In this document: piece by piece, positions 4,145 to 38,156 of the stretch
How the letters are laid out: each line of letters opens with the position of its first letter
How positions within the stretch are numbered: the stretch's first letter is position 1
Sequence record: OV876907
Strand: one strand, 5' to 3'
Length of the DNA: 64,000 bases
Origin: Escherichia phage UGJNEcP3
Notes under the pieces: generated by a model
Database searches by the model: none
What the model saw: the letters and a program-made list of their open reading frames with translations, nothing else
Told to the model about the DNA's origin: nothing
Made by a program: the position numbers and the translations under genes

Positions 4145-4666
4145 TTAATAACCACGGTCCTGACGAGCAAAGTTCTCGGCATTTTTCAGATAATACAGTT
4201 TAAAGATTTCTTCTGCAGTAAGTCCAAGACCCTGGAACATATTCAGAACAAAGTGCAGAATATCAATCATTTCGAATTTAATTTCGAGTTGGTCTTCAGG
4301 AGACAACTCGTCGATACGACGATTACGGAATTCAGCATGCTGAGCTTTCCAAGGCTTCCACACACTAGAGGCTGCTTTTTCACCGTTGGACATACCGCCA
4401 AGAGAAGTCAGCAGTTCACGGAATTCATCGTCAATATAATCTTTCTGGTTGCGAAGCCAATCGACGACTTGACCTGCGGTAGCCAGTTCATCAGGATTAG
4501 AGTTGAATTCTGATTTTTCGGTAGCCAGGCGAACCTGTAAAGATTTCTGCATATCAAGCATAACTTGCAGAGGGTCTTTATCTTCATGAATCAGAGCATT
4601 AAAATAAGCTTCCTCAGCTTTATCAACACCAGAAATCAAACCACTACATTCGTTAAAAAATGCCAT
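4145..4666 (-). CDS. 56: dCTP pyrophosphatase (gene 56-like, MazG family)
   Basis: 173 aa, size and position as T4 gp56; all-alpha MazG-like sequence character. Confidence 0.7.
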   Translation of the reverse strand: MAFFNECSGLISGVDKAEEAYFNALIHEDKDPLQVMLDMQKSLQVRLATEKSEFNSNPDELATAGQVVDWLRNQKDYIDDEFRELLTSLGGMSNGEKAASSVWKPWKAQHAEFRNRRIDELSPEDQLEIKFEMIDILHFVLNMFQGLGLTAEEIFKLYYLKNAENFARQDRGY

Positions 4667-12404: not shown

Positions 12405-13298
12405 TTAAAGGACCACGTCCTCATAACTTGGCATTTCGTGCTCAGAATGGATATGGGCACCGAAATAAATGAATTCAGCTAGACCAGGATGGAATACTAA
12501 ACCAGGATTCTCGTGATAAATGATATGAGGTCTTGATTTCAGAATCTGATAATATTCAACCTTACTAGGTTTGAATTTAATAATCTCTACATCAGGACGA
12601 TAGTCTTCACGTTTAAATGAATCATTCGGGTCGGTGATATAAAGGCGAGAACCTTCAGCTGCAGCTTGGTCTACAACTCTTTCGAATTGATAACATTTAT
12701 CAGAGATACGGAATGGATGGAAAATACCATCAATTTTAATAGGCGCTAGACCTTCAGAGTAACGCTCAATTACTGCGGGATTAATTACCTTTTGGTCTAC
12801 AAAAATCTTATCAGAGGACGCACCTCGTGACACCAGGACGTCTTTCTGGCATTGATTCAGGACTGTAGTATAAATCGAACGTTCAACTGAGGACACGTCG
12901 GTATCAATAAACTCGTCGATATAATAACGAGGAACTTCAGGGTCCATTGTAATGTTAAAGTTGAATTGTACAGTCTGAGTGCCATCATAACCTGTGATAT
13001 CGGTTACTAATCCTGAGCAGTCATAGTATTCGATTAACGAATCAACAACGAACTCGTTTTCAGACCAAAAATGTTTACGAGTTTCATAAGCATTTTCTTT
13101 ATACCAAAGCGGTACAAAATTCAGTTCAGGAAATAATTCAATGCATTCTTTGATATCGCTCGAATTTCTAGGATAAGCCAGATAATCACCTGGGCAAGCA
13201 CGGTTTAAATGGAGTTGAAAATTACCGTCCTTAAGGACGGCATATTCACCTGTTTCGTAACTACGCATACTGAAAATAGGAACGATAAACAGACTCAT
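12405..13298 (-). CDS. hypothetical protein in the beta-glucosyltransferase slot; candidate DNA-base transferase
   Basis: 297 aa; sits where T4 beta-gt lies (between uvsX and 42); no resemblance to T4 beta-gt seen by eye; ATGA overlap with gene 42 homolog. Confidence 0.5.
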   Translation of the reverse strand: MSLFIVPIFSMRSYETGEYAVLKDGNFQLHLNRACPGDYLAYPRNSSDIKECIELFPELNFVPLWYKENAYETRKHFWSENEFVVDSLIEYYDCSGLVTDITGYDGTQTVQFNFNITMDPEVPRYYIDEFIDTDVSSVERSIYTTVLNQCQKDVLVSRGASSDKIFVDQKVINPAVIERYSEGLAPIKIDGIFHPFRISDKCYQFERVVDQAAAEGSRLYITDPNDSFKREDYRPDVEIIKFKPSKVEYYQILKSRPHIIYHENPGLVFHPGLAEFIYFGAHIHSEHEMPSYEDVVL

Positions 13299-13993
13299 TT
13301 CAGGAATCCTCGAACATAGTCAAAATCACGTTCAAATACATGTGCACTAACCATAGTATGGGAATACGTACCCAGACCAACACCACACTGTTCAGCAATA
13401 AAGGCCATCAGTTTACCCTGCAGATAGAAATCCAGCTGCATAACGATAGCACAGTTCTGTGAACGCATATGAGTGTGTGCATACAGACGTCCATCACGAA
13501 TATAATATGTCACCGAATCGGTACAAGGATATTCTAAGGATTCGTCAGAATCAAGGAGGGCTTGGTCTTGTTCTTGGAGAATCTGGAACACAACTCTTCT
13601 TGAGTTAGGCTTCTCTTTAAGCTCTTTAAGTAAGGCTGGGAGTTGGGCCACAATTCGAGGTCCATAGAAAGTGTTGAAGTTTGCAGGCAATACGTCACTT
13701 TTCGGCTTATCAATGAACTTAGCAACATTAGGGTATTCCTTAAATGCTTCGGCGGCGTCAGTACCACCGGAAATCATAAACTTCCAGAAAGATTCGGCAT
13801 AATCATAGTTGATACGATTAATACGAGGGTCGGTGAATTTATAGGTGCTTGCATCCAGAACTTCAACTGAAGCCGAACCAATTTCATAACAACGACCGAT
13901 ACGAGAATCAACTGCAAACTGTGGAGCTTCCAGGATTTCTTCGTTCATTTGTTTAAATGCATTTTCAAAACTAACAGCGGTAATGTGTTTCAT
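13295..13993 (-). CDS. 42: deoxynucleotide hydroxymethylase (gene 42-like, thymidylate-synthase fold), divergent
   Basis: PNSRRVVFQ, PCTDSVTYYIRD (catalytic Cys), MRSQN...LD motifs; far more divergent from T4 than flanking core genes. Confidence 0.7.
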   Translation of the reverse strand: MKHITAVSFENAFKQMNEEILEAPQFAVDSRIGRCYEIGSASVEVLDASTYKFTDPRINRINYDYAESFWKFMISGGTDAAEAFKEYPNVAKFIDKPKSDVLPANFNTFYGPRIVAQLPALLKELKEKPNSRRVVFQILQEQDQALLDSDESLEYPCTDSVTYYIRDGRLYAHTHMRSQNCAIVMQLDFYLQGKLMAFIAEQCGVGLGTYSHTMVSAHVFERDFDYVRGFLK

Positions 13994-14526
13994 TTATTCA
14001 CCTCATAATTAATGTATTCATTAAGACGTTTTAATTCTACCATATCGACGTTAAGCAAGTTATTATGGCCGTCGTGATTTAAGATTTTAAACACGTTTTC
14101 AAAACATGTTTCATATTGGCGGATAGTTAGGTTGAACTCATCTTTAGTCAGTTTAATGAGGTCATCTTCAAAGTCTTTATCCAACGGATTACGGGTTAAA
14201 ATAACCTCAATGATATTGAATTCTTTTTTGAAATCAATCCAATCTGCTAGTTCTACATAAGGGTCCATTTCACCACGAAGGAATCCCGAGTAAACAATAT
14301 TACTAGGATAACCACGGTCTAGGATGTAAACGAAATTAGGGTCTAAAAACTTATACAACGTCTCGACTAAAGCCTTGTCATTATCAGTTCCTAACGAAAT
14401 ACATTTACCATTAATCTTTTTAGGAAAATCAATAAGACGATATTTCTTATCAGATAAAAGGGTTTCGATTAAAGTAGACTTCCCGGAATTATCCGGGCCG
14501 TCTATAACAATGATTTTTGGATTCAT
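13990..14526 (-). CDS. P-loop kinase (nucleotide/nucleoside-kinase-like)
   Basis: Walker A VIDGPDNSGKSTL near N-terminus; later DRGY motif; 178 aa. Confidence 0.55.
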   Translation of the reverse strand: MNPKIIVIDGPDNSGKSTLIETLLSDKKYRLIDFPKKINGKCISLGTDNDKALVETLYKFLDPNFVYILDRGYPSNIVYSGFLRGEMDPYVELADWIDFKKEFNIIEVILTRNPLDKDFEDDLIKLTKDEFNLTIRQYETCFENVFKILNHDGHNNLLNVDMVELKRLNEYINYEVNK

Positions 14527-14897
14527 GGATGATAGGCCTTATAACTATCAAGAGTTCCTTCGCGAACCATTTCTTTAAAGTGGTCAGGACGAATTGCTCG
14601 GTCATCGATGATAAAAGTATAACTCGGCTTGTGTGTAAGCAAATTGTGATATTTCAATCCAATTTTTTCAAGGTTCTTAACCAATGCAGGAACTACTTCA
14701 ACCAAGATTCGGCCTGGGCCGCATGAAGTCATACCACGGGCAGTGAACAATGTAATCTCATGACCTTCATCGTACAGCTTATTAATCATGGACACCATTT
14801 CGGTGTCCGGTTTAAAGTTTTCATAATCACGGTCATCTTGCCAGTGAGTAATGGTATTATCGATGTCAAAGCACAAATGCATTAAATTTTCTTCCAT
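14523..14897 (-). CDS. HAD-superfamily phosphatase-like protein
   Basis: N-terminal motif I LCFDIDNTIT (DxDxT); 124 aa. Confidence 0.5.
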   Translation of the reverse strand: MEENLMHLCFDIDNTITHWQDDRDYENFKPDTEMVSMINKLYDEGHEITLFTARGMTSCGPGRILVEVVPALVKNLEKIGLKYHNLLTHKPSYTFIIDDRAIRPDHFKEMVREGTLDSYKAYHP

Positions 14898-16555
14898 TGT
14901 TTGTGGAGTTCAGTAGAACCTGTAGGTTTATATTTTACACCAGTTTCCTGGTCAAGCAAAACCCACTTATCAGGGCATCGAGTGATAATTTGGGCCGTAA
15001 TAGGGTCACGAACTTCATCGACAAATTCACCTGTAATAAGCTTACGCTTACGAGGATGCCGCTTCAGCAGCACACTCAGTTGATATAGACCGTTGTAATA
15101 AGCGCCCAGAGCTTTCAGAGGGTTATTTTTAAAGTAACCTGCCAACGCCATCCAGATAACAGCAATCCAGAGCTTGTGCTTAAATGTACACATTGGAATA
15201 TCATCTAAAGGCATAACCTTTTCAATATCAACGAATACTCGAGTTCCATTACGAGTTAAGCCACCCCATAGAGGGTCAGAGTTAAATTTGTCATAACCAT
15301 CGATAGAATAAAGCACCTTAGCTTCATCATAAATCGCAGGGCCTTTAGAACTATTACCAAAATAACCGCGTGGGTCGATGATTTTAATATCACCTTCGTC
15401 CGACAGCATAATATTACTGTAGTGCGGGTCGCCGTGAATAAGTTGGTACGGTTCTTTATGTTCAGACAGAATTTCTAGTGCATGACGAAGAAGTTTTTCT
15501 GGGTCGCCTACCTTAAAGTCATTGACATGGGTAATGCCCTGTGGAGCAAAGCCTTCAATCAATCCAGCAATAGAAGCATTACGAATAAGGACCTTGTCCA
15601 ATACTTCTTTCTTAACATCGGAATACCATTGCTCATCGGATGGATTATCGATAGTTCCACCAAATGAACGTAATGCACTAATGACCTTATAAACCATGAG
15701 GACTTTAGTTTCTTTAGACATAAACCGATAGGCATCTGCCATGGTGCGACCAAAGATACGTTCCATTTTAATGAATTCACCTGGAGCAAAGTCTACAATG
15801 CTCGGAACAAATTCAGAATCAATAGAATTATACCAATTGATTTCTTTAGATTGGATTTCTTTACCTAATTCGTTGGTAGGTACTTTAATAGCCAGATTCT
15901 CAGTGAACTCTAATTTATTAAATTCACGGTTAATTTCAGAATCTTCATGGGCCTTAGCCAGTTTCAATTTGTCACCGACATCAACTACAAAGTCCAGCTT
16001 ACGTTCGGTCAAATGGACCATCGAATCTAGGTTATCAGCAAGGTCTTCGCCATAATTAGAACGGTTGAAGCCTGTCCAATTAGCCACCTGATACAAACCA
16101 ACCACACCACCGCCAGTACCAATTTCACGCAAGTACGGTTCTTCAAATGTAAAACGACAGTCAGTCCCGTAGGTATAGCAATAGTCGTTATCCCACTCAA
16201 CTTTATGACCCTCAGGAATGATGTCACACCAGTTAAACAAGACGTTATGGCCAATGATATCTTCAGCAATGCAATCGATAGCATGAGCTGAACCATTAGC
16301 CACATCTACGTTACGAATAGTGAATTTAGGCTTATCACTATTAATCATGTTAATGGATTTAATATAGCCTTTAACGAGGTCGTTAAATTTGCTGTGAATA
16401 ACCAGAATAATTTCATCTGATTGGTTACTATACAAATCATACAAATGTTTTAATACAGTATGTTGTTTGTAGTTAACCAATACCTTCGGGATTTCGTTAG
16501 TAATTGGATACAACCGTGAGCCAAGACCCGCGCCTAAAATAACAACCTTTTTCAT
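14882..16555 (-). CDS. bifunctional nucleotidyltransferase / APH-family (sugar- or choline-type) kinase
   Basis: N-terminal VILGAGLGSRLYPIT...PK (NDP-sugar pyrophosphorylase signature); C-terminal LIHGDPHYSNIML and IIDPRG (Brenner phosphotransferase motif); ATG 16555 with SD GAGGAA. Confidence 0.65.
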   Translation of the reverse strand: MKKVVILGAGLGSRLYPITNEIPKVLVNYKQHTVLKHLYDLYSNQSDEIILVIHSKFNDLVKGYIKSINMINSDKPKFTIRNVDVANGSAHAIDCIAEDIIGHNVLFNWCDIIPEGHKVEWDNDYCYTYGTDCRFTFEEPYLREIGTGGGVVGLYQVANWTGFNRSNYGEDLADNLDSMVHLTERKLDFVVDVGDKLKLAKAHEDSEINREFNKLEFTENLAIKVPTNELGKEIQSKEINWYNSIDSEFVPSIVDFAPGEFIKMERIFGRTMADAYRFMSKETKVLMVYKVISALRSFGGTIDNPSDEQWYSDVKKEVLDKVLIRNASIAGLIEGFAPQGITHVNDFKVGDPEKLLRHALEILSEHKEPYQLIHGDPHYSNIMLSDEGDIKIIDPRGYFGNSSKGPAIYDEAKVLYSIDGYDKFNSDPLWGGLTRNGTRVFVDIEKVMPLDDIPMCTFKHKLWIAVIWMALAGYFKNNPLKALGAYYNGLYQLSVLLKRHPRKRKLITGEFVDEVRDPITAQIITRCPDKWVLLDQETGVKYKPTGSTELHKQWKKI

Positions 16556-16615: not shown

Positions 16616-17116
16616 TTAAATCTTATCTTTACCGATTTCAATACACTGTTCTATTGCCGCCGGTACTTTGGTCTTGAGCTTATCGATTTGTTTCTTATAA
16701 TCACGAGCTTTACCGAAGCTCTCGGTTTCGAGCATTTCGTAATAACGAGCCTCGTGGATGGAAATCTGTAGATTGATATGGTTTACGCACATCGCATACA
16801 GTTTCTGCTTTTTGTACAAATCATCTTGGCGCTTCATTTCTGCCTGGTGTTTGGCTAGTACCGCTTCACGCTTAGACTCTTGTTCACGTTGGAATTCGAT
16901 TTCCCTTTGAGCATATTTTGCACAGTTATTACCACATTGATTATTAGCTCGGGTATACACAAGTCCAGAACCGGCACGGAATTTCATTTCGCCATCGAAT
17001 TGTTTCTGTTCAGCTGCGATACGAGCTTTACCAACTTCATCGGCTGAAACTGCATCACCATATTGGACCGCACAACCTGATAGGAGCATACTCATTGCGA
17101 TAATTAACTTTTTCAT
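16616..17116 (-). CDS. lipoprotein (signal MKKLIIAMSMLLSGC)
   Basis: lipobox LSGC; coiled-coil-rich mature part. Confidence 0.5.
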   Translation of the reverse strand: MKKLIIAMSMLLSGCAVQYGDAVSADEVGKARIAAEQKQFDGEMKFRAGSGLVYTRANNQCGNNCAKYAQREIEFQREQESKREAVLAKHQAEMKRQDDLYKKQKLYAMCVNHINLQISIHEARYYEMLETESFGKARDYKKQIDKLKTKVPAAIEQCIEIGKDKI

Positions 17117-17494: not shown

Positions 17495-17526
17495 TGTAAT
17501 TTCCTCTTAAGTAGTTGTTAGGAAGG

Positions 17527-17556
17527 ATAATACCACGTTCCATGTGGTATGTAAAC
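17527..17556 (-). promoter_or_regulatory. promoter-like element GTTTAC-N18-TATTAT
   Basis: upstream of imm. Confidence 0.45.
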
Positions 17557-17558
17557 AC

Positions 17559-20270
17559 TTAAAAGTCAAACATGTCAAATAATGTTGCTTTTTTCTCGTA
17601 GTCGATTTTAGCAGACTCGGTGAAACCGGTAAGAGGTTTGATAAAGGTCTTTTGGAACAATACGTTGTAGTCCATCCAACGGAGGACTTGGTCACGAATC
17701 TGAACTGGAAGTTCAATACCTGATGGCCATGCCATACAAGCTTCACCGAACGGGTTGCCTTCTTTAAGTGGAAGTACATATACCTTTTCACCGTCGACGA
17801 TACGTGGCATAGTCAAATCACCAGCAGAAGCACGCATGTAAGCTAAGCAACCTTTGATGTGATACGGGCATTTAGAACCAGGGAATCCACCTTCATTATA
17901 TTTCTCGATGTTGTTAGCACTGGATACTGCTGCAATGCTTACATAGTTTAGTTCGTTAAATTCCTTATTAAACTGTTTGAAATATTCTTGCAAAGAGGCC
18001 TCGCCTTCCTGAAGCATACGACGGATACATTCTTTCAGAGCTTTCTGAACTGCTTTAGGTGTACTTGATTTCTGAGTTTCGAGACCCATGATTTTCAAGT
18101 GTGGTTCAGCATAACGAGTACCTTCCATGTCCCAAACGTTCAGTGCATAACGTTTCTTGCCTGTCCAGAATCCACCAAGACCTTTAGAACCAAGTGGAGG
18201 TCCTGCGATAGCTTCTCGGTCCATGAACATCAAGTGCTGTTTGTTGTTCATGTATTCACACATCTCACGGAAGCCTGCATCAATAGCAGGTTCCATACGT
18301 TCACGTGCAAATTTATCTAAGAAGTCGACCCAGTGGTTAGTATCACGGAATTTTTCTTCGCCAACTTTATTGATGATGGCATCTGCCTTAACATAAATGG
18401 AGTCAGTATCACCATAGAGCACGAACTTCTGGTTTTCAGTCTTGCACACTCTATTCAGATATTCGTTAACCTTACGTTCAATCCATTGGAGGGCCATTTG
18501 ACCAAACAGTGTGATTGCAGTTGCGTTCCTGAGGTCATAATAACGGAACCATACGTTACCAAGTGCACCATAAAGGGAGTTGATAAGCAACTTACGGTTA
18601 ATCTGAGCAGTGTTACCTGCAACTTCAGTGAGCTCGGCTTTCTTCAACATTTCTCTTAAAGAAGGCCCTGACAGTGCTTTAATCTGGGCTTTGATTTCGT
18701 CAGAGAAGTCAAAACGATAATCGATATCTAGTGGACTATCAACTGAGAGATTAGGATTTTCCAATGCTTCTTTAATTAACTCACCATTACGTTGAGCTGC
18801 AAGCATGTAACCTTTATGTTCTTTACGCTGCAAGAATACCTTGGTGATTTCTGTCGGAATCACACCTTCACGGTCTTTATAATACATCATGCCGTTAGGA
18901 GAGCAACTGTAGGTGTCGCTAGGACGCTGAGCAGTTCCGGCAATATATTCATGTATCGGTGCGTTGGCGAATGTCCCTGCGATGGTCTCTGGGCTTATAT
19001 TCACTTGCCGAATGATACTCGGGTACAGAGATGTAAGGTCAAAACTCATTACATATTTGTAAGCGTTAGGAATAGGTTCCTTAACGAAAGCACCAGGATA
19101 AGGTTGGACCACGTGTGAACGACCCTGTGGAATTACCTTGCCTTGTTCTTTAAGACTATTAAAGATAATAGCGTCCCAAGTCTTAATTGGACTGAACACC
19201 GACTGAATCTGCATCTTGGCATAATAACCCATGTCCAAACTCAGAAGAATGAACTGACGTTTCATATCAATCTGCACTACACGATATACGTCGATAATGT
19301 TATAGGAAATATATCGTTGGTGGTTCGTCTCACGTAACTTAGAGATTGGACCATCATATTTCAACTTACCTACTTTCAATTCATATTCAGAAACATAATC
19401 CAGAGAATAAGAAGGCTGGTTGGTAAAGCTGAATTTTTTATACAGGTCGATATAATCCAGAACAGAGATACCGAACAGTGTAATAATTTCACGAGCACCG
19501 TACATGTTCTCAATAACTTTAACACGAGTTTTACGATGCGGGCTTAATCGCTTAGCAGTGTTCTCACCGAACAGATTTTTCAGACGGTTATAAACGTACG
19601 GCACGTCAAATGACTCAACGTTCCACCCAGTCAAAATCACAGGAGTTTTCTGTTGCCAGAAATTCAGGTACTCAAGCATCATTTCTTCTTCAGAATTAAA
19701 CGAAAGATAAACGATTTTGTCAATGATTTCCTGTGGAACTTCGTCACCACCTTCGTCTTGGAGTTTCTCAGCGATTTTAATCGACCACTCTTCAACAGTA
19801 CCATAAGGCGAAACTAAAAGGTCGAATACATAGAATTTATCGTCAATCGAGTCGTAGTGGGTAATGGCATCGATAGGATGTTTAGCCTGAGCTGGTTCAG
19901 GGAATCCATCAGGAGATGTTACCTCGATGTCGAAGTTAGCAATACGAATCTTAGAAGAATCATATTTGATTTCTTTACGATAGGTATCAGACAAATAGGC
20001 TAATTTATAGTCGTCCATACCCAGGGCTTCGAGACCCATATCGTCCATACGTTTCATCCATTGGGATGCATCACGCATAGAGTCGAATTCTTTCTTAACA
20101 CAACCCTTACCATAGATATCAATGTATTTTACGGCTTGCTCTGGATTGGCATGCATAAACATTGTAGGCTTGTATGGAACTTCACGACTACGTTCGTTAC
20201 CATTTTTATCGATGTAACGTTCGAGAATATTATCACCGATTTGTTCGACTGTCAAATAGAATTCTTGCAT
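17559..20270 (-). CDS. 43: DNA polymerase (gene 43, family B)
   Basis: exo motif FDIE, DLTSLYPSII, KLLINSLYG, YGDTDS; track ORF starts at a TTG 60 nt upstream; ATG at 20270 with SD AAGGAAA matches T4 N-terminus. Confidence 0.9.
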   Translation of the reverse strand: MQEFYLTVEQIGDNILERYIDKNGNERSREVPYKPTMFMHANPEQAVKYIDIYGKGCVKKEFDSMRDASQWMKRMDDMGLEALGMDDYKLAYLSDTYRKEIKYDSSKIRIANFDIEVTSPDGFPEPAQAKHPIDAITHYDSIDDKFYVFDLLVSPYGTVEEWSIKIAEKLQDEGGDEVPQEIIDKIVYLSFNSEEEMMLEYLNFWQQKTPVILTGWNVESFDVPYVYNRLKNLFGENTAKRLSPHRKTRVKVIENMYGAREIITLFGISVLDYIDLYKKFSFTNQPSYSLDYVSEYELKVGKLKYDGPISKLRETNHQRYISYNIIDVYRVVQIDMKRQFILLSLDMGYYAKMQIQSVFSPIKTWDAIIFNSLKEQGKVIPQGRSHVVQPYPGAFVKEPIPNAYKYVMSFDLTSLYPSIIRQVNISPETIAGTFANAPIHEYIAGTAQRPSDTYSCSPNGMMYYKDREGVIPTEITKVFLQRKEHKGYMLAAQRNGELIKEALENPNLSVDSPLDIDYRFDFSDEIKAQIKALSGPSLREMLKKAELTEVAGNTAQINRKLLINSLYGALGNVWFRYYDLRNATAITLFGQMALQWIERKVNEYLNRVCKTENQKFVLYGDTDSIYVKADAIINKVGEEKFRDTNHWVDFLDKFARERMEPAIDAGFREMCEYMNNKQHLMFMDREAIAGPPLGSKGLGGFWTGKKRYALNVWDMEGTRYAEPHLKIMGLETQKSSTPKAVQKALKECIRRMLQEGEASLQEYFKQFNKEFNELNYVSIAAVSSANNIEKYNEGGFPGSKCPYHIKGCLAYMRASAGDLTMPRIVDGEKVYVLPLKEGNPFGEACMAWPSGIELPVQIRDQVLRWMDYNVLFQKTFIKPLTGFTESAKIDYEKKATLFDMFDF

Positions 20271-23673: not shown

Positions 23674-23714
23674 TTGGTTGGTAAATGTATTATAAATCTA
23701 TATTTTAAAGCAAT

Positions 23715-23906
23715 TTAATCAAAGTACTCGTAGACAAACCATGCCGGATTTCTATTTGACATGATTTTATCATATTCTGACTTAAAAGCATTTCGGAGAT
23801 ATTCTTCAGTAACAAGATGCTCATCTCCAGAGAAGTTGTTAACTAAAACGTATCTCTTTATTTCTGGAAAGGCCAACAAATGCTGGCCTGTTATAAAATC
23901 ACTCAT
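23715..23906 (-). CDS. hypothetical protein (63 aa)
   Basis: ORF on dominant strand. Confidence 0.35.
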   Translation of the reverse strand: MSDFITGQHLLAFPEIKRYVLVNNFSGDEHLVTEEYLRNAFKSEYDKIMSNRNPAWFVYEYFD

Positions 23907-24589
23907 TATGAAGCATCCTTTAATTTACAATTATCAAAGTGCCATCGTTTCATAATGTTGTTAGAGCCAATTTTATCACAATATGGGCACTTTACAGTTG
24001 GTCTGCTTTTAGCTTTTGCAGATTGTTTGCTTTTCATAGCCTGTTTTGCTTCGTCAGACCTAGAATTAAGGGCTATAGAAATTTTATCCCTTGTTTCTTG
24101 GCTATGAGTTTTTCCGAACATAGGGTTGTTCTCAGGCAAATATGTACCATTTCTTATATTACTCTGACGAATTTTTTCTATATGTTCTTTAGATTTATTT
24201 CTTAGCTCTAGGCATTTAGATTTCTTTCTAGTTTTAAAAAGGTTTTCATAAAATGAATACGGTCTATTTTTAGCAGCTATACTCTGTTTAAGTCTGGTTT
24301 CCTCTTTTATAAAAGGTGCGGCATTACCTCCTAAAGAAATATTATATGTAAGAGGGTTCTTTATAAATTCCTCATTGACTATAATTCTTTCCATTTGGAT
24401 AGCCTCTTCTCTGGTATCAAAATTATAAAGTATTTCCTTTCTATGATTTTCCAAACCATATTTTTTAATAGAAGCTTTAATATATAAACCAGAGCCCATA
24501 TACGAATCTTTAATATTTTCAGTACTATGTATCCCTACATAGTACTTATTATTAACTAAATTTATTATTTTGTAAACAAGATGTCTCAT
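23906..24589 (-). CDS. GIY-YIG homing endonuclease (Seg-like)
   Basis: N-terminal YKIINLVNNKYYVGIHS...YMGSG...R...E...NISLGGN; basic C-terminal DNA-binding region; free-standing between 45 and 46. Confidence 0.65.
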   Translation of the reverse strand: MRHLVYKIINLVNNKYYVGIHSTENIKDSYMGSGLYIKASIKKYGLENHRKEILYNFDTREEAIQMERIIVNEEFIKNPLTYNISLGGNAAPFIKEETRLKQSIAAKNRPYSFYENLFKTRKKSKCLELRNKSKEHIEKIRQSNIRNGTYLPENNPMFGKTHSQETRDKISIALNSRSDEAKQAMKSKQSAKAKSRPTVKCPYCDKIGSNNIMKRWHFDNCKLKDAS

Positions 24590-26283: not shown

Positions 26284-26521
26284 CCTTGATGCATGATTCA
26301 GCCATATGAATTAATGTTTCTGGAGTATCATCTACCATTACATTAAAGCTAAATTCTACAGCCCAATCGGTAGCAACATAAACTTTAATAAGCTCGCCGG
26401 TATCACGAGTGCTCACGGCTTCAAACCAGAACTTAATTGTACTAGGTTGACCATCATCATCAATAACTATACAGTCGTGTTCCAGTTCAAGTCCCGATTT
26501 TTTGAATTCATCTAAAGTCAT
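26258..26521 (-). CDS. hypothetical protein (87 aa)
   Basis: ORF between 47 and 46. Confidence 0.4.
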   Translation of the reverse strand: MTLDEFKKSGLELEHDCIVIDDDGQPSTIKFWFEAVSTRDTGELIKVYVATDWAVEFSFNVMVDDTPETLIHMAESCIKDAYNDEDF

Positions 26522-27540
26522 CGTGTAACCTCATTATAAAGTTGTGCAGCCATAGTCTTAAGGGCTTTAACATCGGCTTCAGTGTGGCCATCAGGAAGGG
26601 CATCGATATAATCATACATCATATCCAAGAGGGATTTAACTTCGTCTTCCTCTTCAGAATCATCAATATCAACACTATTATCTACCTTAGACACAATACG
26701 TAAAGAGTGAACAACCTTTTCAAGCTCTGATTCGAACTTAGTAAGACCGTCATCGATTTTATCGACTATAACACGAACTGCGATATTTGTAAAATCTTTG
26801 TAATCGATAGTCTCGTTAGGATAATGAATCTTACGATGCCAACAGGTTTCATTAATGATGAAATCCATTTTATGAGTTTCGGTATCGAAAATCCAGAAAC
26901 CACGAGGGTCGTTCTCATCGCCTGCAGTAAGGGTCCATGGCGTACCAATGTACTTGACGTTTGCTGCATCAGAAATGGTGTGGAAGTGGCCAGACCATAC
27001 TTGCTTATACTTCTTAAGGAAATCAGGTTCTAAACCATGTGATTTCATTCCTTTATAGAAATAGAAACCATTTAATTCCCAGTGGCCAATACAGAAATCT
27101 GCCGTGGTATTTTTGATATGGTCCATGATATCAGTGGTGTTTTCTTCACACATCCATGGAATCAAATCAATTTCGGTGCCATCAAAGTTAACCGTAGTAG
27201 GTTTCTCAATAACCTTGATATGGTCATATTTACCCAGAACTTCAGAAGCTGCGTTCGGCGTCAGGGTATTTTTGTAGTGGGCATCATGGTTACCAACGAC
27301 CGTATACATGGTAATGCCACTTTCTTTAAGCAAATCAGAGATTTCGCGAGCGAATTCCATACACTTATGGGTAATTGCTTTACGAACGTCAAAGATATCA
27401 CCGTATTGAATCCACACGGTAATACCATTTGCTTTAGAATAATTGATAGCGTCTTGGATACCTTGACGTTGGATATTTTGTACCCACACATCATCGGCCT
27501 TCACTCCAAGGTGCCAGTCACCTGTGTTTAATATTTTCAT
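26518..27540 (-). CDS. 47: recombination nuclease subunit gp47 (Mre11/SbcD-like)
   Basis: phosphoesterase motifs GDWHLG, GDIFD, GNHD, GHWE, GHFH; track ORF begins at upstream TTG; ATG at 27540. Confidence 0.85.
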   Translation of the reverse strand: MKILNTGDWHLGVKADDVWVQNIQRQGIQDAINYSKANGITVWIQYGDIFDVRKAITHKCMEFAREISDLLKESGITMYTVVGNHDAHYKNTLTPNAASEVLGKYDHIKVIEKPTTVNFDGTEIDLIPWMCEENTTDIMDHIKNTTADFCIGHWELNGFYFYKGMKSHGLEPDFLKKYKQVWSGHFHTISDAANVKYIGTPWTLTAGDENDPRGFWIFDTETHKMDFIINETCWHRKIHYPNETIDYKDFTNIAVRVIVDKIDDGLTKFESELEKVVHSLRIVSKVDNSVDIDDSEEEDEVKSLLDMMYDYIDALPDGHTEADVKALKTMAAQLYNEVTR

Positions 27541-27680
27541 AAGCCGAGCACCGTTATCGCAATGCAAAATAAAATTATTGAGATGAACCCATCAGGAGTA
27601 GAAAAGAATCCTATCCAACAGGCTCGTGTGAATGTGTAGAATGCCATGAATAACACGACATATCCTAAAAGTAATTCCAT
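27537..27680 (-). CDS. small hydrophobic protein (47 aa)
   Basis: SD GAGGAG + ATG; stop overlaps gp47 ATG. Confidence 0.3.
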   Translation of the reverse strand: MELLLGYVVLFMAFYTFTRACWIGFFSTPDGFISIILFCIAITVLGL

Positions 27681-27723
27681 ATGTTCTCCTCAGTTGGTTC
27701 ATTTTATCATCCGAATATAAAGC

Positions 27724-27745
27724 AAAAAAGGAGCCTAAGCTCCTT
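27724..27745 (-). terminator. intrinsic terminator-like hairpin
   Basis: AAGGAGC-CTAA-GCTCCTT followed by U-run on minus strand. Confidence 0.5.
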
Positions 27746-27900
27746 TACCAATTAATACGCCATACAGAGGTTCATGAGAAGACCTGAACTTGATAGGCTT
27801 ATAGGTAATAGTACCTTCATTTTCCGCTTTAATACGAGCAGCTTCAAATTTAAGTATCATCTCATTTTTGTCAGATTTAATCTTATCAAAATCCATCGAA

Positions 27901-27977
27901 TTCGTCATTCATAAAACCTCTTAAACTTTTTCGTATTCGTCATTCATAGCTTAAAAATCTGGATGTTCGTCTTTCAT
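27901..27977. repeat. three spaced copies of ttcgtcattcat (third degenerate) forming tandem 8-codon mini-ORFs
   Basis: copies at 27901-27912, 27936-27947, 27965-27977; minus-strand ATGAATGACGAA... each closed within 8 codons. Confidence 0.6.
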
Positions 27978-28180
27978 TAGCCACCTGTCCATGTTATCAT
28001 CGTTGCCACCACTTCTTAAGTTGATGTGAATCCACCCAAACCTTGGCTACAGGCTCAATCCGAAAAATTTCATCGGAATACTGCCCAACCATTTTATATT
28101 CGGTTTCAGTCTGCTTAATACAAATATTACCGTATGAGCGAAGTCTGAAGGCGGCTCCAATAAGAAGCCGTTTAAAGGGT

Positions 28181-28492
28181 TTATTTACTAGCGCCATTGA
28201 TAATTTCCCAAATCTGTTTACGCGTAGTTTCCCACATAACTCTAACGATTTCGTCAGTAGTTGGTTGACGGTAAATACCACGTAATTTAATTATAGCATA
28301 TTTGTAAGCTTCGAAATTGTTTTCGAGAACAGCGCCCTGAGCATGTGTATTAAGACGCTTAATTTCACGGGCATTCTTTTTAAGAATTTTGGCAGCTTGG
28401 GAAGCGGCTTCTTTAGCATTATTCTCTTCTAAACGCTTCTGGGCTTCTTCAATTTGCTCTTCGGTCAATTGAGAAATGTCGGTGCTTTGCAT
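28181..28492 (-). CDS. hypothetical protein (103 aa)
   Basis: ORF on dominant strand. Confidence 0.4.
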   Translation of the reverse strand: MQSTDISQLTEEQIEEAQKRLEENNAKEAASQAAKILKKNAREIKRLNTHAQGAVLENNFEAYKYAIIKLRGIYRQPTTDEIVRVMWETTRKQIWEIINGASK

Positions 28493-28493
28493 A

Positions 28494-28742
28494 TTAATCC
28501 TTGTAATTCAGTTTTATATAAAAATCTTCGTCGGTAACGTGATAGTTATAAGTTAATGTTCCTTTTTCAGCTTTAATTTCTACCGAATCAGGGTGTTTTG
28601 GGTCTATTACAATAGGAAGCTTGGCAATATCCTTAAGATACATTTTAAGAACATAAGGAATTGCCGAATACTCTCCATCTACTTCTTCTAAAAGGCCTAC
28701 CAGGTTAATCTTGAGTTCCATATAAAAAATCCAGCTCACCAA
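28494..28742 (-). CDS. hypothetical protein (82 aa or shorter)
   Basis: ORF; overlaps gene 55 3' end. Confidence 0.35.
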
Positions 28743-29262
28743 CTTTAGATTCGGCGCTCTTATCAGACCCTGGCGCTTTAACTAAAGAGGTTTCATACTG
28801 AGTCATTTTGTCGTAAATATCCTGGATAAAAGTTTCATCTGCGATACCTACCATGTCGTCGTCATTGGCGTCATAAACGTTATGGACGAAGTAGCTGTAT
28901 TTCTTTGCCATTTCTTTACGTTCTTTCTTGATACGCTGAACAAAGGCATTAAAACAAGCCATAGTGATATATGCATGTGGGTTGTCGTATTTTGTTTCGT
29001 CGAAGTTATGAAGACCTTTAATAGAGGCTTCGATTCCATCAGCAATCATTTCTTGCTTCCAAGATTGGGTATATCCGGAGAAGTTGAAACGCTTAGAAAG
29101 GCCTTCAGCAATGAGCATAATAGCCAAGCCGATAACGTCGTTCTGACGAACTATTTTATTAGGGTCGGTATTTTCTCGGAGTTCTGTTTTCCACTGGGTA
29201 ATGGCTTTCAGAAGCTCCTTATTATTTACATAGTTATTTTTAGTCAGTTTAATTTCGGTCAT
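28705..29262 (-). CDS. 55: late sigma factor gp55
   Basis: 185 aa; [10 protein letters not shown]...[55 protein letters not shown]... near-identical to T4 gp55 as recalled. Confidence 0.9.
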
Positions 29263-29328
29263 TGTTACCTCAGATAACTCAAATCATAGGTCTATTATAT
29301 CATAGTATTTGGAGACCCGTTTAAAGCA

Positions 29329-31614: not shown

Positions 31615-31932
31615 CTAATCTTCAATTAAATCTCGGTCATAGCCAAGCTCAATCAAAAGGGATTTGAAGGCAGGAATATTTTCTATTTTCTTATTATCAA
31701 CAAAGATTACAGGATAGCGTATAGCTAAGCTCTTGAAGCCGGCACGTTTGGCCAATGATACTATAAGAGGCTTGTCATATACTGCGCCTGACGGCGTCTG
31801 GTTAATCACAGGATAGAAAGTATGTGGGATAGAAAGGGAATTTAGGAGCGATAGAACTGCAATGCACCCTGGACAGCGCATGACTGCCTCAGGGATACCG
31901 TAAATCTCAATTTTAGTTAACTTTTGGTCCAC
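31615..31932 (-). CDS. glutaredoxin/thioredoxin-like protein (CPGC motif)
   Basis: KIEIYGIPEAVMRCPGC; probable GTG start at 31932 with SD AAGGAG 9 nt upstream; track start further upstream. Confidence 0.4.
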   Translation of the reverse strand: MDQKLTKIEIYGIPEAVMRCPGCIAVLSLLNSLSIPHTFYPVINQTPSGAVYDKPLIVSLAKRAGFKSLAIRYPVIFVDNKKIENIPAFKSLLIELGYDRDLIED

Positions 31933-32209
31933 AGGAAATAACTCCTTGGTAGTCCCAAGTTTTGATAACTTCGTCTTCATTAGTTCCGTATGGGACGTAA
32001 ATCTGGATAAGGAAACCCGTGTCATCAAAAGAGAAATAAACCGTTGGTTTAATACCATGAATCTCTGACAGAGCATAGATGTCCTTAAGGTCGTCTTCCT
32101 TACCTTTAAAGAATTCAGGGTTCAGGTCACAGTCATGGAAGTACCAGTCATTACCGAACTTGTCCCATGCGGTCCAATTCAAAGCTACATACTCTTCAAA
32201 ACGTTTCAT
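31913..32209 (-). CDS. hypothetical protein (98 aa)
   Basis: ORF. Confidence 0.4.
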   Translation of the reverse strand: MKRFEEYVALNWTAWDKFGNDWYFHDCDLNPEFFKGKEDDLKDIYALSEIHGIKPTVYFSFDDTGFLIQIYVPYGTNEDEVIKTWDYQGVISCGPKVN

Positions 32210-32433
32210 TCTTTCACCTTCATCATTTTAGAAATAACACTATGAACAGCCTGGATTCGTTTGTCGAACTCAGTCCCTTCAAGACCCTTTTCAGTACTCA
32301 ATGCACCAATAATAACGAACAGCACTCCAAATGGGATAACCAGGATTAAAAGGCACACAATAAACAGGACAAATGTAATATTGGCCAGGATATCAGAAGC
32401 AGCATTACGAAATTTATTCATACGATAGTCCAT
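32206..32433 (-). CDS. small membrane protein (75 aa)
   Basis: long hydrophobic segment. Confidence 0.4.
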   Translation of the reverse strand: MDYRMNKFRNAASDILANITFVLFIVCLLILVIPFGVLFVIIGALSTEKGLEGTEFDKRIQAVHSVISKMMKVKE

Positions 32434-32527
32434 GTATTAGTTACAACAAATAACCATTGAGCAGGATACTCAACACCCATGCGCCGGATAATATCGTTCA
32501 TAGATTCGGTTAAGGCATAAAAATTAA

Positions 32528-33001
32528 TCATTTAAGCGATTTCCTCAGTTGTTTTTTAAATGAATCGACCATTTGTTTCTTTGTGTCAGATTCATTATAA
32601 GTCATTCCGTGTGAAAGCATTTCAGCAATCATTTCTTCCTTACCTAATCTACTGAACTCTTTGGTTTTATCAGGAACGAAATTAGGATGGATATTGTTTT
32701 CAGTATAATCAGATTTCAGATAGACAAGCAAATTCTCTAACCATTCGAGGTAGTCAACGTTTTGACCTTTAAGACCAGAGCGGTTAAACTTATGCTTCAT
32801 TTGTCCTTCTGCGGCATTACACAGGTTGCATAGTAACCCACGAACCTTACCAGCTTTTGGCCCGTTTAATTCGTGGTCATGGTCAAGGTGGTTGCTTTGA
32901 ACATCAGGGTTTAATTCACGGGTACAGATTAAACACTTACCATCCTGTGCATCATAAAGTTTTTGTTTTTCTTCTTTGTATAATTTACCAGTCAACAACA
33001 T
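32528..33001 (-). CDS. 49: endonuclease VII (gene 49, Holliday-junction resolvase)
   Basis: 157 aa; MLLTGKLYKEEKQK...CLICTRELNP...HLDHDHELNGPKAGKVRGLLCNLCNAAEG... near-identical to T4 gp49 as recalled. Confidence 0.9.
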   Translation of the reverse strand: MLLTGKLYKEEKQKLYDAQDGKCLICTRELNPDVQSNHLDHDHELNGPKAGKVRGLLCNLCNAAEGQMKHKFNRSGLKGQNVDYLEWLENLLVYLKSDYTENNIHPNFVPDKTKEFSRLGKEEMIAEMLSHGMTYNESDTKKQMVDSFKKQLRKSLK

Positions 33002-34889: not shown

Positions 34890-35097
34890 TATCTTCTCGC
34901 TCAAATTTATGTTTGCAATGTCGGCATTTGTAACGAAGATTACTAGACTGCCAATGGACCAGTTGGACTTGTTCGGTTCCGCATTCCGGACAGTTAGGAA
35001 CATTCTTGGAAGCTTGTTCACGGCGATGAACCATAGCCATCACAGCATCCCAATCAGGAATAGTTTGGTCAATATCGTCAGCTAATTGATATTTCAT
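34876..35097 (-). CDS. zinc-ribbon protein (73 aa)
   Basis: CPECG...CRHCKH. Confidence 0.4.
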
Positions 35098-36104
35098 TTC
35101 AACAGCTCCAGAGCTTGTTCAAGGCGGTCTAAACGATTAGTAGACTCTTCCCAAAGTTTCTTGGCAGCAGTATATTGTCCAGTCAGTTTTTTGTTAATAG
35201 CAAGGGCGTCTTTATACGCTTTTTCCAGAGCAACGACTTCTGGTAACTTGGATTTAGTAATTGGTGTAGGGACCATGATAGGGCTGTTCAAGTCGTTAAT
35301 CAAGTCTTCTAATGTAGCAGGCTCTTTATCAGTATTCACAATTTCCTCACATTTTTCTTGGTAAATTTCAGCATCGGTTTTTGGAACATGACATTTGATT
35401 TCACGGACTGTTACTAAAACTTCATATCCTTTCCAGCCTAAGTGGTGTTTAACTTCTTGGGTCTCATATTTCTCTACGGTATCCATCAGAGCTAAAGCCT
35501 GTTCGATAGTATTCAAGGTATCGTAAGCAATATCTTGATACTTTACAACTTCTGGCTCATCTTTAGGTTTCCGGTTTGGTGACCAGATAACGGAAATAAG
35601 CACCTTTCCTTTATAGGCGTTTGTTTTAATCATGCAATTTGCCATAGGATGAATGGTGCGGCTATCACCAGCAACTACTGTTTTAGTGGCGGCTTTGAGG
35701 ATTAATGCAGAGTTAGCCTTGAATTCAGCGGCCCAACGTTGTGGAAATAAACTACTAGGGTCCATACCTTTAATTTTGACATAACCTTTTATGGTATCGC
35801 CAAACCATTTGTAGCTAACAACATGGCTAGAACCAGGATATTTCTCTCTACCAAACTCAGAAAGGATGTCCTTATTGACCAGCCGCGAAAGCAGTCGAGA
35901 ACCTTTAAATGTATCTACGATATCATTAATAAACAAGCGACCCGCGATCTTTTCGATTTCAGCTTTGAAACAGCGCGATAATGCATCATCAATTTGGTCG
36001 ACCCATTTATTGATATTAGAAACTATTACCACATATGGGGTTAATGGAGGGGTATTGGCAGTGATATACGTAGTAAAGGCATTGATGTATTCGGTACGAG
36101 TCAT
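35094..36104 (-). CDS. hypothetical protein (336 aa)
   Basis: large ORF; no motif recognised. Confidence 0.5.
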   Translation of the reverse strand: MTRTEYINAFTTYITANTPPLTPYVVIVSNINKWVDQIDDALSRCFKAEIEKIAGRLFINDIVDTFKGSRLLSRLVNKDILSEFGREKYPGSSHVVSYKWFGDTIKGYVKIKGMDPSSLFPQRWAAEFKANSALILKAATKTVVAGDSRTIHPMANCMIKTNAYKGKVLISVIWSPNRKPKDEPEVVKYQDIAYDTLNTIEQALALMDTVEKYETQEVKHHLGWKGYEVLVTVREIKCHVPKTDAEIYQEKCEEIVNTDKEPATLEDLINDLNSPIMVPTPITKSKLPEVVALEKAYKDALAINKKLTGQYTAAKKLWEESTNRLDRLEQALELLK

Positions 36105-36161
36105 GATATTCTCCTCAAGTTGATAGAAAGATTATACTCCATCCGTCCTTGGATGTAAACA

Positions 36162-37067: not shown

Positions 37068-37245
37068 AGAATTTAGCGATTGGCCAGGTTATAATAAAAA
37101 CTATCCCAAACATAACAAGAACTGGCCAGATAAAGGTGGCAAACACTGCTTCACCACCTGAGTTAATTTCCATATGATTACGACCAATAAGGACAGTAAT
37201 GAATCCTAATGCAAGGTACAGAAGAATAAAACCTGCGATTTCCAT
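37045..37245 (-). CDS. small membrane protein (66 aa)
   Basis: two hydrophobic segments. Confidence 0.4.
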   Translation of the reverse strand: MEIAGFILLYLALGFITVLIGRNHMEINSGGEAVFATFIWPVLVMFGIVFIITWPIAKFYEKLFGL

Positions 37246-37247
37246 AA

Positions 37248-38093: not shown

Positions 38094-38156
38094 AATAATT
38101 TCCTCAGTAAGTAATTAAGAACCTAGAACCATTATACCATCCTTGGTATAAAGCGT

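What the first reader, a model, noticed from the sequence alone, without database searches (positions are those of the whole stretch)
27540..28705. No alpha-glucosyltransferase between genes 47 and 55
T4 carries alpha-gt (about 400 aa) in this interval. Here it holds only small ORFs, a terminator and the ttcgtcattcat repeats. Together with the replaced beta-gt slot, this phage probably makes no glucosyl-hmC.
Basis: partly seen in the sequence, partly recalled or inferred. Interest (0 to 1): 0.55.

Follow-up and report, generated by a model that had tools for sequence, protein, structure and literature searches.

The report
T4-like phage without DNA glucosyltransferases
This JS98-type relative of phage T4 really lacks the glucose-adding enzymes of T4 and instead carries the recently described gene set for arabinose-decorated 5-hydroxycytosine DNA, a situation already reported for this phage group.

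Summary
The window is 100% identical to Escherichia phage UGJNEcP4, a Dhakavirus (JS98 group). Between gene 47 and gene 55 lie only homologs of T4 47.1, a-gt.2, a-gt.3, a-gt.4 and a-gt.5, in T4 order. Where T4 has a-gt and mobB, 54 bp remain, holding a terminator hairpin and a MotA-type middle-promoter-like site. The 12-mer repeats are real. They are tandem copies of the a-gt.2 start region.

The b-gt slot instead holds orthologs of the RB69 arabinosyl-5-hydroxycytosine pathway:
- a GT-B transferase;
- a thymidylate-synthase homolog, 78% identical to RB69 gp48, with the diagnostic D169N residue;
- a phosphatase;
- a bifunctional sugar kinase/nucleotidyltransferase.

So the phage probably makes no glucosyl-hmC, and probably no hmC at all. 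It most likely makes arabinosyl-5-hydroxycytosine, likely with one arabinose, since the second transferase is absent.

This is already known. The missing glucosyltransferase genes in JS98 were reported in 2010, and a 2026 paper lists Dhakaviruses among phages with the syntenic cluster. No Dhakavirus DNA chemistry was found in the searchable library.

The parts
26518..27540 (-). Gene 47 (SbcD/Mre11-like recombination nuclease subunit); its ATG at 27540 overlaps the stop of 47.1
   Evidence: T4 gp47 aligns at 71% identity over 341 aa; annotated in JS98 and UGJNEcP4
27537..27680 (-). 47.1, a 47-aa predicted membrane protein
   Evidence: 80% identity to T4 47.1, E = 1e-20; annotated in JS98
27701..27724 (-). 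MotA-type middle-promoter-like site: TGCTTTA, 11 nt, TAAAAT. It is followed by the SD GAGGAG and the ATG of 47.1
   Evidence: Pattern match: 11 sites in the window against 1.85 expected, 8 of them on the transcribed strand. Conserved in Dhakaviruses and RB69. Function is inferred
27721..27746 (-). Intrinsic terminator: stem AAAGGAGC/GCUCCUUU, loop UUAG holding the TAG stop of a-gt.2, then a T6 run. This is the place where T4 has mobB and a-gt
   Evidence: VR5, RB69 and T4 keep the stem through compensatory changes
27735..27908 (-). a-gt.2 homolog (57 aa, DUF5486)
   Evidence: Pfam PF17588, E = 1.9e-20; 47% identity to T4 a-gt.2
27901..27977 (-). Three tandem copies (30 and 35 nt apart) of the a-gt.2 start region, ATGAA(A/T)GACGAA. 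They create the 8-codon mini-ORFs MKDEHPDF*, MNDEYEKV* and MNDEFDGF*.
   Evidence: Copy number varies: 3 in this phage and JS98, 2 in VR5, WG01 and dhabil, 1 in RB69. The T4 a-gt.2 N-terminus (VKDEHP) aligns to the first copy
27997..28197 (-). a-gt.3 homolog (66 aa)
   Evidence: 45% identity to T4 a-gt.3, E = 4e-14; JS98 annotation
28181..28492 (-). a-gt.4 homolog (103 aa, DUF2654)
   Evidence: Pfam PF10849, E = 1e-24; 43% identity to T4
28494..28721 (-). a-gt.5 homolog (75 aa, DUF5491)
   Evidence: Pfam PF17595, E = 1e-18; 51% identity to T4
28705..29262 (-). Gene 55, late sigma factor
   Evidence: 78% identity to T4 gp55, E = 6e-96
12405..13298 (-). 297-aa GT-B-fold transferase in the slot where T4 has b-gt; ortholog of RB69 gp46:47 (proposed first arabinosyltransferase)
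13295..13993 (-). Thymidylate-synthase homolog, predicted 5-hydroxy-dCMP synthase (not a dCMP hydroxymethylase)
   Evidence: 78% identity to RB69 gp48, 25% to T4 gp42. C146 kept; L143E, N177D and D169N present. E = 1.5e-125 to PDB 9iqu/9iqc
13990..14526 (-). P-loop nucleotide-kinase-like protein (RB69 gp45 homolog)
   Evidence: 37% identity, E = 4e-30; phrog_761, thymidylate kinase
14523..14882 (-). Small HAD-like phosphatase (RB69 gp51 / HY126 AfhF type)
   Evidence: 61% identity to RB69 gp51; E = 2e-51 to PDB 9iqw
14882..16555 (-). 557-aa fusion of a nucleotidyltransferase and a sugar-kinase domain (RB69 gp52:53 / AfhE type)
   Evidence: 41-44% identity to RB69 p052 and p053; Pfam NTP_transferase plus APH
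16616..17116 (-). 166-aa lipoprotein (lipobox LLSGC) in the position of T4 imm.1; not a sugar enzyme
   Evidence: Alignment of 12 homologs; no enzymatic Pfam hit
4145..4666 (-). Gene 56, dCTPase/dUTPase, which excludes unmodified dCTP
   Evidence: 68% identity to T4 gp56, E = 6e-76

Best explanation
The window comes from a JS98-type T4 relative (Dhakavirus, phage UGJNEcP4) that belongs to a different DNA-modification lineage from T4. The gene 47 to gene 55 interval keeps the T4 neighbours 47.1 and a-gt.2 to a-gt.5. The a-gt (plus mobB) cassette is precisely absent. In its place a single module follows a-gt.2: an intrinsic terminator, then a MotA-type middle promoter and a ribosome-binding site that restart expression of 47.1, 47 and 46. 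No a-gt, b-gt or ba-gt homolog exists anywhere in the genome. Cytosine replacement is instead predicted to run through the RB69/HY126-type pathway encoded between uvsX and gene 43. In that pathway gp56 dCTPase supplies dCMP. A flavin-dependent thymidylate-synthase homolog hydroxylates dCMP to 5-hydroxy-dCMP, which is phosphorylated and incorporated into DNA. An AfhE-like kinase/pyrophosphorylase and an AfhF-like phosphatase make UDP-arabinofuranose from arabinose 5-phosphate, which here would have to come from host KdsD/GutQ. A GT-B transferase sitting in the b-gt slot attaches arabinose to the 5-hydroxyl. There is no homolog of the second transferase (RB69 gp3), so mono-arabinosyl-5-hydroxycytosine is expected. 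What is shown: the gene content, the orthology, the signature residues and the fold. What is inferred: the enzyme activities, the sugar identity, and the terminator and promoter function.
Against: I found no chemical analysis of any Dhakavirus DNA in the searchable library; several relevant papers are not held. Three RB69 pathway genes have no homolog here: the arabinose-5-phosphate isomerase gp55, the second transferase gp3 and the U32-peptidase-like gp50. The pathway is therefore a reduced version, and the sugar or its chain length could differ. The AfhE-like enzyme is only 41-44% identical to RB69's. The first transferase has not been shown active in vitro, even for RB69 or DLP3 (PMC13326640). 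The promoter and terminator are consensus and structure matches only; the hairpin region's folding z-score is a modest -1.6.
Confidence: 0.85

Rival explanations
1. The phage glycosylates its DNA with a sugar other than arabinose, for example glucose or xylose on 5-hydroxycytosine. The 297-aa GT-B enzyme and the AfhE-like enzyme would have a different sugar specificity.
For: There is no arabinose-5-phosphate isomerase and no gp50 homolog. The AfhE-like protein is only 41-44% identical to RB69's. The homolog of this GT in Shewanella phage Thanatos was reported to show UDP-xylose pyrophosphorylase activity in vitro (PMC12838424). Glycosylated 5hoC with hexoses exists in Rhizobium phage RL38J1.
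Against: The transferase is 64-69% identical and the phosphatase 61% identical to the RB69 proteins. E. coli supplies arabinose 5-phosphate through KdsD/GutQ (established knowledge), so a phage isomerase is dispensable. The published synteny analysis groups Dhakaviruses with arabinosylating phages.
Confidence: 0.08
2. The DNA carries a bare modified base (5-hydroxycytosine or hmC) without any sugar. The transferase and sugar-activation genes would be inactive relics.
For: Petrov et al. 2010 left open whether JS98 uses unglycosylated Hm-dCMP. No activity data exist for the first transferase.
Against: All five cluster ORFs are intact and conserved in about 50 Dhakavirus genomes. The GT family shows 23 invariant columns across 42 diverse homologs. 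The model folds with pLDDT 95.
Confidence: 0.04
3. A glucosyltransferase is present but too diverged for sequence detection, hidden among the unassigned ORFs, so the phage still makes glucosyl-hmC.
Against: There is no hmC synthase to provide the acceptor: the only dCMP-type TS homolog has the 5hoC signature D169N, and the other TS is an ordinary dUMP-type ThyA, 52% identical to E. coli ThyA. The unassigned ORFs belong to conserved phage families of unknown function (PHROGs). T4 a-gt is no closer in structure to the 297-aa protein than generic GT4 enzymes are (rank 29).
Confidence: 0.03

Closest known systems
Escherichia phage JS98 / Dhakavirus genomes (EF469154, NC_010105; Zuber et al. 2007, cited from Petrov et al. 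2010; Petrov et al. 2010, PMC2993671)
   Same: Same gene order 47, 47.1, a-gt.2, a-gt.3, a-gt.4, a-gt.5, 55 with no a-gt. DNA identity is 98.2% over 26500-29300, including the three repeat copies. The lack of glucosyltransferase genes alongside genes 42-like and 56 was already published.
   Different: UGJNEcP4 has an extra Seg-like homing endonuclease between 45.2 and 46. The modification cluster is only about 93% identical to JS98's, with an indel.
RB69 (Mosigvirus) arabinosyl-5-hydroxycytosine pathway, gp45-gp55 plus gp3 (PMC6024577; PMC13326640); HY126 Afh proteins
   Same: Also has no a-gt between 47 and a-gt.2, with the same terminator/promoter module. Orthologs are present for the first GT, the 5hodCMP synthase with D169N, the kinase-like protein, the AfhF-like phosphatase and the AfhE-like bifunctional enzyme.
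   Different: There is no homolog of gp3 (second arabinosyltransferase), gp55 (arabinose-5-phosphate isomerase), gp50 or gp49. Gene order within the cluster differs: here the GT lies next to uvsX, whereas in RB69 the kinase does. One arabose unit rather than two is predicted.
T4 / Tequatrovirus and Klebsiella Jiaodavirus alpha-glucosyltransferase locus
   Same: Same flanking genes in the same order. In T4 and in Klebsiella phage Mineola, a-gt sits exactly between a-gt.2 and 47.1/47 and is followed by a terminator.
   Different: The a-gt ORF, and T4's mobB, are absent here. T4 carries the hairpin + GCTTTA + -10 module twice, flanking mobB and a-gt; this phage has it once.

Membership tests
T4 DNA alpha-glucosyltransferase (a-gt) | Detectable sequence homology to T4 a-gt (400 aa) anywhere in the genome | tested here: not met
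   tblastn against the whole 170,590-bp genome: best E = 0.055 over 36 aa. phmmer --max against 783 ORF segments: best 6.4 bits
T4 DNA alpha-glucosyltransferase (a-gt) | An ORF of about 400 aa between a-gt.2 and 47.1/47, as in T4 and Mineola | tested here: not met
   Only 54 bp separate the a-gt.2 stop (27735) from the 47.1 start (27680)
T4 DNA beta-glucosyltransferase (b-gt) and T2/T6 beta-alpha-glucosyltransferase | Sequence homology anywhere in the genome | tested here: not met
   T4 b-gt best E = 4.3. T6 ba-gt best E = 0.039 over 35 aa, 10.5 bits in phmmer
dCMP hydroxymethylase (T4 gp42 type) | Close homology to gp42, with Asp at the ThyA-169 position | tested here: not met
   25% identity to T4 gp42; position 169 is Asn
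5-hydroxy-dCMP synthase (RB69 gp48 / DLP3 gp80 type) | Thymidylate-synthase fold with the catalytic Cys146 | tested here: met
   Pfam PF00303, E = 5e-14; Cys aligned with ThyA C146
5-hydroxy-dCMP synthase (RB69 gp48 / DLP3 gp80 type) | N177D (dCMP preference), L143E, and the diagnostic D169N | tested here: met
   All three are present and identical to RB69 gp48; criterion from PMC13326640
5-hydroxy-dCMP synthase (RB69 gp48 / DLP3 gp80 type) | Flavin-dependent hydroxylation of dCMP, demonstrated by assay | not testable with these tools
   Needs expression and LC-MS. Closest characterised relatives: RB69 gp48 at 78% identity, and PDB 9iqu at E = 1.5e-125
Arabinosyl-5hoC cluster (RB69 gp45-55 / HY126 Afh) | GT-B transferase orthologous to RB69 gp46:47 next to the TS homolog | tested here: met
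Arabinosyl-5hoC cluster (RB69 gp45-55 / HY126 Afh) | Bifunctional sugar kinase/nucleotidyltransferase (AfhE type) and HAD phosphatase (AfhF type) | tested here: met
   Pfam NTP_transferase plus APH in one 557-aa ORF. Phosphatase 61% identical to RB69 gp51 and E = 2e-51 to 9iqw
Arabinosyl-5hoC cluster (RB69 gp45-55 / HY126 Afh) | Phage-encoded arabinose-5-phosphate isomerase (RB69 gp55, DLP3 gp83) | tested here: not met
   No hit genome-wide, best E = 0.95. The ORF in the corresponding position is a lipoprotein
Arabinosyl-5hoC cluster (RB69 gp45-55 / HY126 Afh) | Second arabinosyltransferase (RB69 gp3) for di-arabinosylation | tested here: not met
   No hit genome-wide, best E = 1.6
Arabinosyl-5hoC cluster (RB69 gp45-55 / HY126 Afh) | Arabinosylated 5-hydroxy-deoxycytidine in virion DNA | not testable with these tools
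   Requires nucleoside LC-MS or NMR; no Dhakavirus data found
Intrinsic terminator | G+C-rich hairpin followed by a U run, with the stem kept by compensatory changes | tested here: met
   8-bp stem plus T6. VR5, RB69 and T4 have different but complementary stems. Termination itself was not tested
T4 MotA-dependent middle promoter | MotA box TGCTTtA 11-13 bp upstream of a TAnnnT -10 element, and a MotA homolog in the genome | tested here: met
   Site at 27701-27724 (minus strand). The pattern occurs 11 times against 1.85 expected. A MotA-like activator is annotated. Activity was not tested

The most novel reading that the evidence does not exclude
Dhakaviruses carry a minimal version of the pathway: one transferase, no phage isomerase and no gp50-like enzyme. 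It would depend on host KdsD/GutQ for arabinose 5-phosphate and give purely mono-arabinosylated 5-hydroxycytosine. Less likely, it would attach a different sugar to 5-hydroxycytosine, which would be a new DNA base variant. Neither has been checked chemically for this genus in the literature I could search.
Probability: 0.12. Interest if true: 0.45.

Novelty: already known. Interest (0 to 1): 0.15.

Why it matters
The type of cytosine hypermodification decides which restriction, CRISPR and type IV (GmrSD/BrxU-like) defences a therapeutic coliphage escapes or triggers. It also decides whether the phage can recombine with T-even phages. For this phage the practical message concerns annotation. 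Several Dhakavirus records label the gene at 13295-13993 "dCMP hydroxymethylase" or "thymidylate synthase", and the phosphatase "phosphoheptose isomerase". These labels are probably wrong. The DNA is predicted to carry arabosyl-5-hydroxycytosine, not hmC. Nothing here changes the current understanding of the field.

Tried and rejected
1. I looked for a hidden a-gt, b-gt or ba-gt with tblastn and phmmer --max across the whole genome. Only noise came back.
2. I tested whether the 166-aa ORF in the position of RB69's isomerase is a novel sugar enzyme. It is a lipoprotein analogous to imm.1.
3. I scanned the larger unassigned ORFs (35094-41186, 52163-54117) for glycosyltransferase domains. Pfam gave only DUFs, an AAA ATPase and RlaP, and PHROGs gave conserved families of unknown function.
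4. I considered that the 12-mer repeats might be protein-binding or regulatory sites. Alignment shows they are polymorphic tandem duplications of the a-gt.2 translation start, with two allelic units joined in this phage and JS98. No independent function is supported.
5. I tried to find chemical data for Dhakavirus DNA, and the JS98 genome paper. PMC2168658 is not held, the He et al. 2026 HY126 paper is not in the library, and no Dhakavirus LC-MS data turned up.
6. A sequence search of the 297-aa GT against the PDB found nothing. Only fold comparison identified it.
Full report
**Identity of the window.** A megablast of 26500-29300 finds Escherichia phage UGJNEcP4 (OV877765.1, Straboviridae, Tevenvirinae, Dhakavirus) at 100% identity. 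JS98 matches at 98.2%, JS10 at 98.0%, and other Dhakaviruses at 90-99%. I rebuilt the complete 170,590-bp genome from four fetched pieces. The window equals genome positions 12639-76638 exactly.

**The observation.**
- All genes in this region are on the minus strand.
- T4 gp47 aligns to 27540-26521 at 71% identity, and T4 gp55 to 29262-28708 at 78%.
- Between them lie five small ORFs: 47.1 (27537-27680), a-gt.2 (27735-27908), a-gt.3 (27997-28197), a-gt.4 (28181-28492) and a-gt.5 (28494-28721). Their identity to the T4 proteins is 80, 47, 45, 43 and 51%.
- Pfam assigns DUF5486, DUF2654 and DUF5491 to a-gt.2, a-gt.4 and a-gt.5.
- The JS98 GenBank record annotates exactly these genes and no a-gt.
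- In T4 the order is 47, 47.1, a-gt, mobB, a-gt.2, a-gt.3, a-gt.4, a-gt.5, 55. The 400-aa a-gt and the HNH endonuclease mobB are therefore precisely missing.
- Only 54 bp separate the a-gt.2 stop from the 47.1 start.

**What the 54 bp contain.**
- Read on the minus strand, the a-gt.2 stop codon TAG lies in the loop of the hairpin AAAGGAGC-TTAG-GCTCCTTT (27746-27727). A T6 run follows. The terminator scan finds it, and it is the centroid structure of the RNA fold.
- The stem is kept with different sequences in VR5 (GGAAGC/GCTTCC), RB69 (GGAACTC/GAGTTCC) and T4 (GGAGC/GCTCC). This is the compensatory pattern expected of a real hairpin.
- Directly downstream comes TGCTTTA, 11 nt, then TAAAAT (27724-27701). 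This fits the T4 MotA-dependent middle-promoter layout.
- That pattern occurs 11 times in the window against 1.85 expected, with 8 sites on the transcribed strand. A MotA-like activator is annotated in the genome.
- The SD GAGGAG and the ATG of 47.1 follow.
- T4 carries a hairpin + GCTTTA + -10 module twice: once after a-gt.2 (before mobB) and once after a-gt (before 47.1). This phage and RB69 carry it once.
- In Klebsiella phage Mineola (Jiaodavirus), a-gt sits in the same slot as a-gt.2 | a-gt | terminator | 47.
- The slot is plastic within Dhakavirus. Phage Esco_phi_B-01 has a 205-aa ORF, which by eye looks like a GIY-YIG endonuclease (not scanned), in place of 47.1. Phage dhabil lacks 47.1.
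- Whether a-gt was lost here or gained in the T-even and Jiaodavirus lines cannot be decided from these data.

**The repeats.**
- TTCGTCATTCAT occurs exactly at 27901 and 27936, and with one mismatch at 27966. About 0.7 matches are expected in the whole window.
- On the coding strand they read ATGAA(A/T)GACGAA. They are three tandem copies, 30 and 35 nt apart, of the a-gt.2 translation-start region.
- They generate the 8-codon mini-ORFs MKDEHPDF*, MNDEYEKV* and MNDEFDGF*. The real a-gt.2 start (ATGACGAAT, MTNS...) lies inside the third copy.
- The N-terminus of T4 a-gt.2 (VKDEHP) aligns to the first copy, which is now cut off from the gene body by in-frame stops.
- Copy number is polymorphic: three in UGJNEcP4 and JS98, two in VR5, WG01 and dhabil, one in RB69.
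- The two upstream units of this phage match the VR5/dhabil-type and WG01-type single units respectively. This suggests a duplication or recombination between alleles.
- I see no evidence of a separate function.

- tblastn of T4 a-gt, T4 b-gt and T6 ba-gt against the whole genome gives best E-values of 0.055 (36 aa), 4.3 and 0.039 (35 aa).
- phmmer --max against all 783 stop-to-stop segments of at least 60 aa gives at most about 10 bits.
- In the phage database, a-gt homologs occur in 657 records, mostly E. coli, Shigella and Yersinia phages at 90-100% identity and Klebsiella phages at about 66%. The 40 rows listed were Tequatrovirus-like or Klebsiella/Raoultella phages.

**What replaced b-gt.** In T4 the order is uvsX, segA, b-gt, 42, imm, imm.1, 43. 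Between uvsX and imm this phage has six minus-strand ORFs.

| ORF (window) | Size | Best relative | Other evidence |
|---|---|---|---|
| 12405-13298 | 297 aa | RB69 gp46:47, 64-69% identity | GT-B fold (below) |
| 13295-13993 | 232 aa | RB69 gp48, 79% by tblastn (78% in the alignment) | Only 25% to T4 gp42; Pfam Thymidylat_synt |
| 13990-14526 | 178 aa | RB69 gp45 kinase-like, 37% | phrog_761, thymidylate kinase |
| 14523-14882 | 119 aa | RB69 gp51 phosphatase, 61% | E = 2e-51 to PDB 9iqw |
| 14882-16555 | 557 aa | RB69 gp52:53, 41-44% | Pfam NTP_transferase plus APH kinase |
| 16616-17116 | 166 aa | None in RB69 | Lipoprotein, lipobox LLSGC |

RB69 gp46 and gp47 are one gene split by a sequencing error, according to PMC13326640.

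- The 297-aa protein has no Pfam or PDB sequence match.
- Its AlphaFold2 model, built from 42 homologs, has pLDDT 95.2.
- These are the same top hits published for RB69 gp46:47.

**The base itself.**
- RB69 DNA was first described as arabinosyl-hmC (PMC6024577). It has since been shown to contain arabinose linked by an ether bond to 5-hydroxycytosine.
- The 5-hydroxy-dCMP is made by gp48, a flavin-containing thymidylate-synthase homolog. Asn at the ThyA-169 position (D169N) is diagnostic for this activity (PMC13326640).
- I aligned the window protein with E. coli ThyA, the phage's own ThyA-type enzyme, T4 gp42 and RB69 gp48. The window protein has C146, L143E, N177D and D169N, identical to RB69 gp48. 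T4 gp42 keeps D169.
- The protein also matches PDB entries 9iqu/9iqc at E = 1.5e-125. These are labelled only "Thymidylate synthase". I infer a phage HY126 origin from the neighbouring entry 9iqz, which is labelled as the HY126 glycosyltransferase.
- The phage therefore very probably makes 5-hydroxycytosine, not hmC.

**Differences from RB69.**
- No homolog exists of gp3 (second arabinosyltransferase), gp55 (arabinose-5-phosphate isomerase), gp50 or gp49.
- The simplest reading is mono-arabinosylation, with arabinose 5-phosphate drawn from the host KdsD/GutQ enzymes. That host supply rests on established E. coli metabolism and was not tested here.
- The reduced set leaves a small chance that the sugar differs.

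**Supporting context.** gp56 dCTPase is present at 68% identity to T4. Alc-like, DenB-like and dNMP-kinase genes are annotated in the genome. This fits complete replacement of cytosine. The cluster is conserved at 91-96% DNA identity in about 50 Dhakavirus records.

**Comparison with the literature.**
- Petrov et al. 2010 already stated that RB69 and JS98 encode gene 42 and 56 homologs but lack glucosyltransferase genes. They asked whether another modification is used.
- Thomas et al. 2018 noted the IME08 (Dhakavirus) homolog of ORF53_52c.
- The 2026 NAR paper lists Dhakaviruses among groups whose syntenic region implies 5hodC biosynthesis.
- I found no direct chemical analysis of a Dhakavirus genome.

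**Verdict.** It should be sharpened to "no hmC at all; arabinosyl-5-hydroxycytosine instead". It is already known at the level of comparative genomics, so interest is low. The residual open point is chemical confirmation of the base, and of the number and identity of sugars, in this genus.

Noticed in passing
window 4671-5327 (minus strand): An intact 218-aa ORF with an HNH MobB-like N-terminus (42% identity to T4 MobB residues 1-136) and a Seg/NUMOD-like C-terminus. It lies between gene 56 and gene 61, where T4 has dam. The GenBank record annotates only its last 100 codons (record 17309-17611).
   Followed up: partly
window 23906-24589 (minus strand): A 227-aa SegA-like homing endonuclease (NUMOD3; 40% identity to T4 SegA) inserted between 45.2 and gene 46. 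JS98 has no gene there.
   Followed up: partly
L010 (Esco_phi_B-01) 1128-1745; L013 (dhabil) around 1141-1199: The a-gt slot varies within Dhakavirus. One phage has a 205-aa ORF, by eye GIY-YIG-like (motif YIGST) but not scanned, replacing 47.1. Another lacks 47.1 altogether.
   Followed up: partly
window 16616-17116 (minus strand): A 166-aa lipoprotein (lipobox LLSGC, conserved CGNNC motif) sits where RB69 has its arabinose-5-phosphate isomerase and T4 has imm.1. Function unknown; only 11 homolog clusters were found.
   Followed up: partly
window-wide, e.g. 4770-4795, 5334-5357, 23689-23712, 44957-44982, 56306-56330, 60744-60768 (minus strand): The MotA-type middle-promoter pattern TGCTTYA-N11-13-TANNNT occurs 11 times against 1.85 expected, mostly on the transcribed strand. 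It could serve as a map of candidate middle promoters.
   Followed up: no
window 35094-36104, 37248-38093, 52163-52852 (minus strand): Three ORFs of 229-336 aa have no Pfam domain and match only PHROG families of unknown function. They are the largest unassigned proteins in the window.
   Followed up: partly
genome record positions 44253-45639 (window about 31615-33001): As in JS98, gene 49 follows 55.8 with only one tiny (37-aa) ORF between them. No anaerobic ribonucleotide reductase genes (nrdD, nrdG) appear in the annotation, unlike T4.
   Followed up: no
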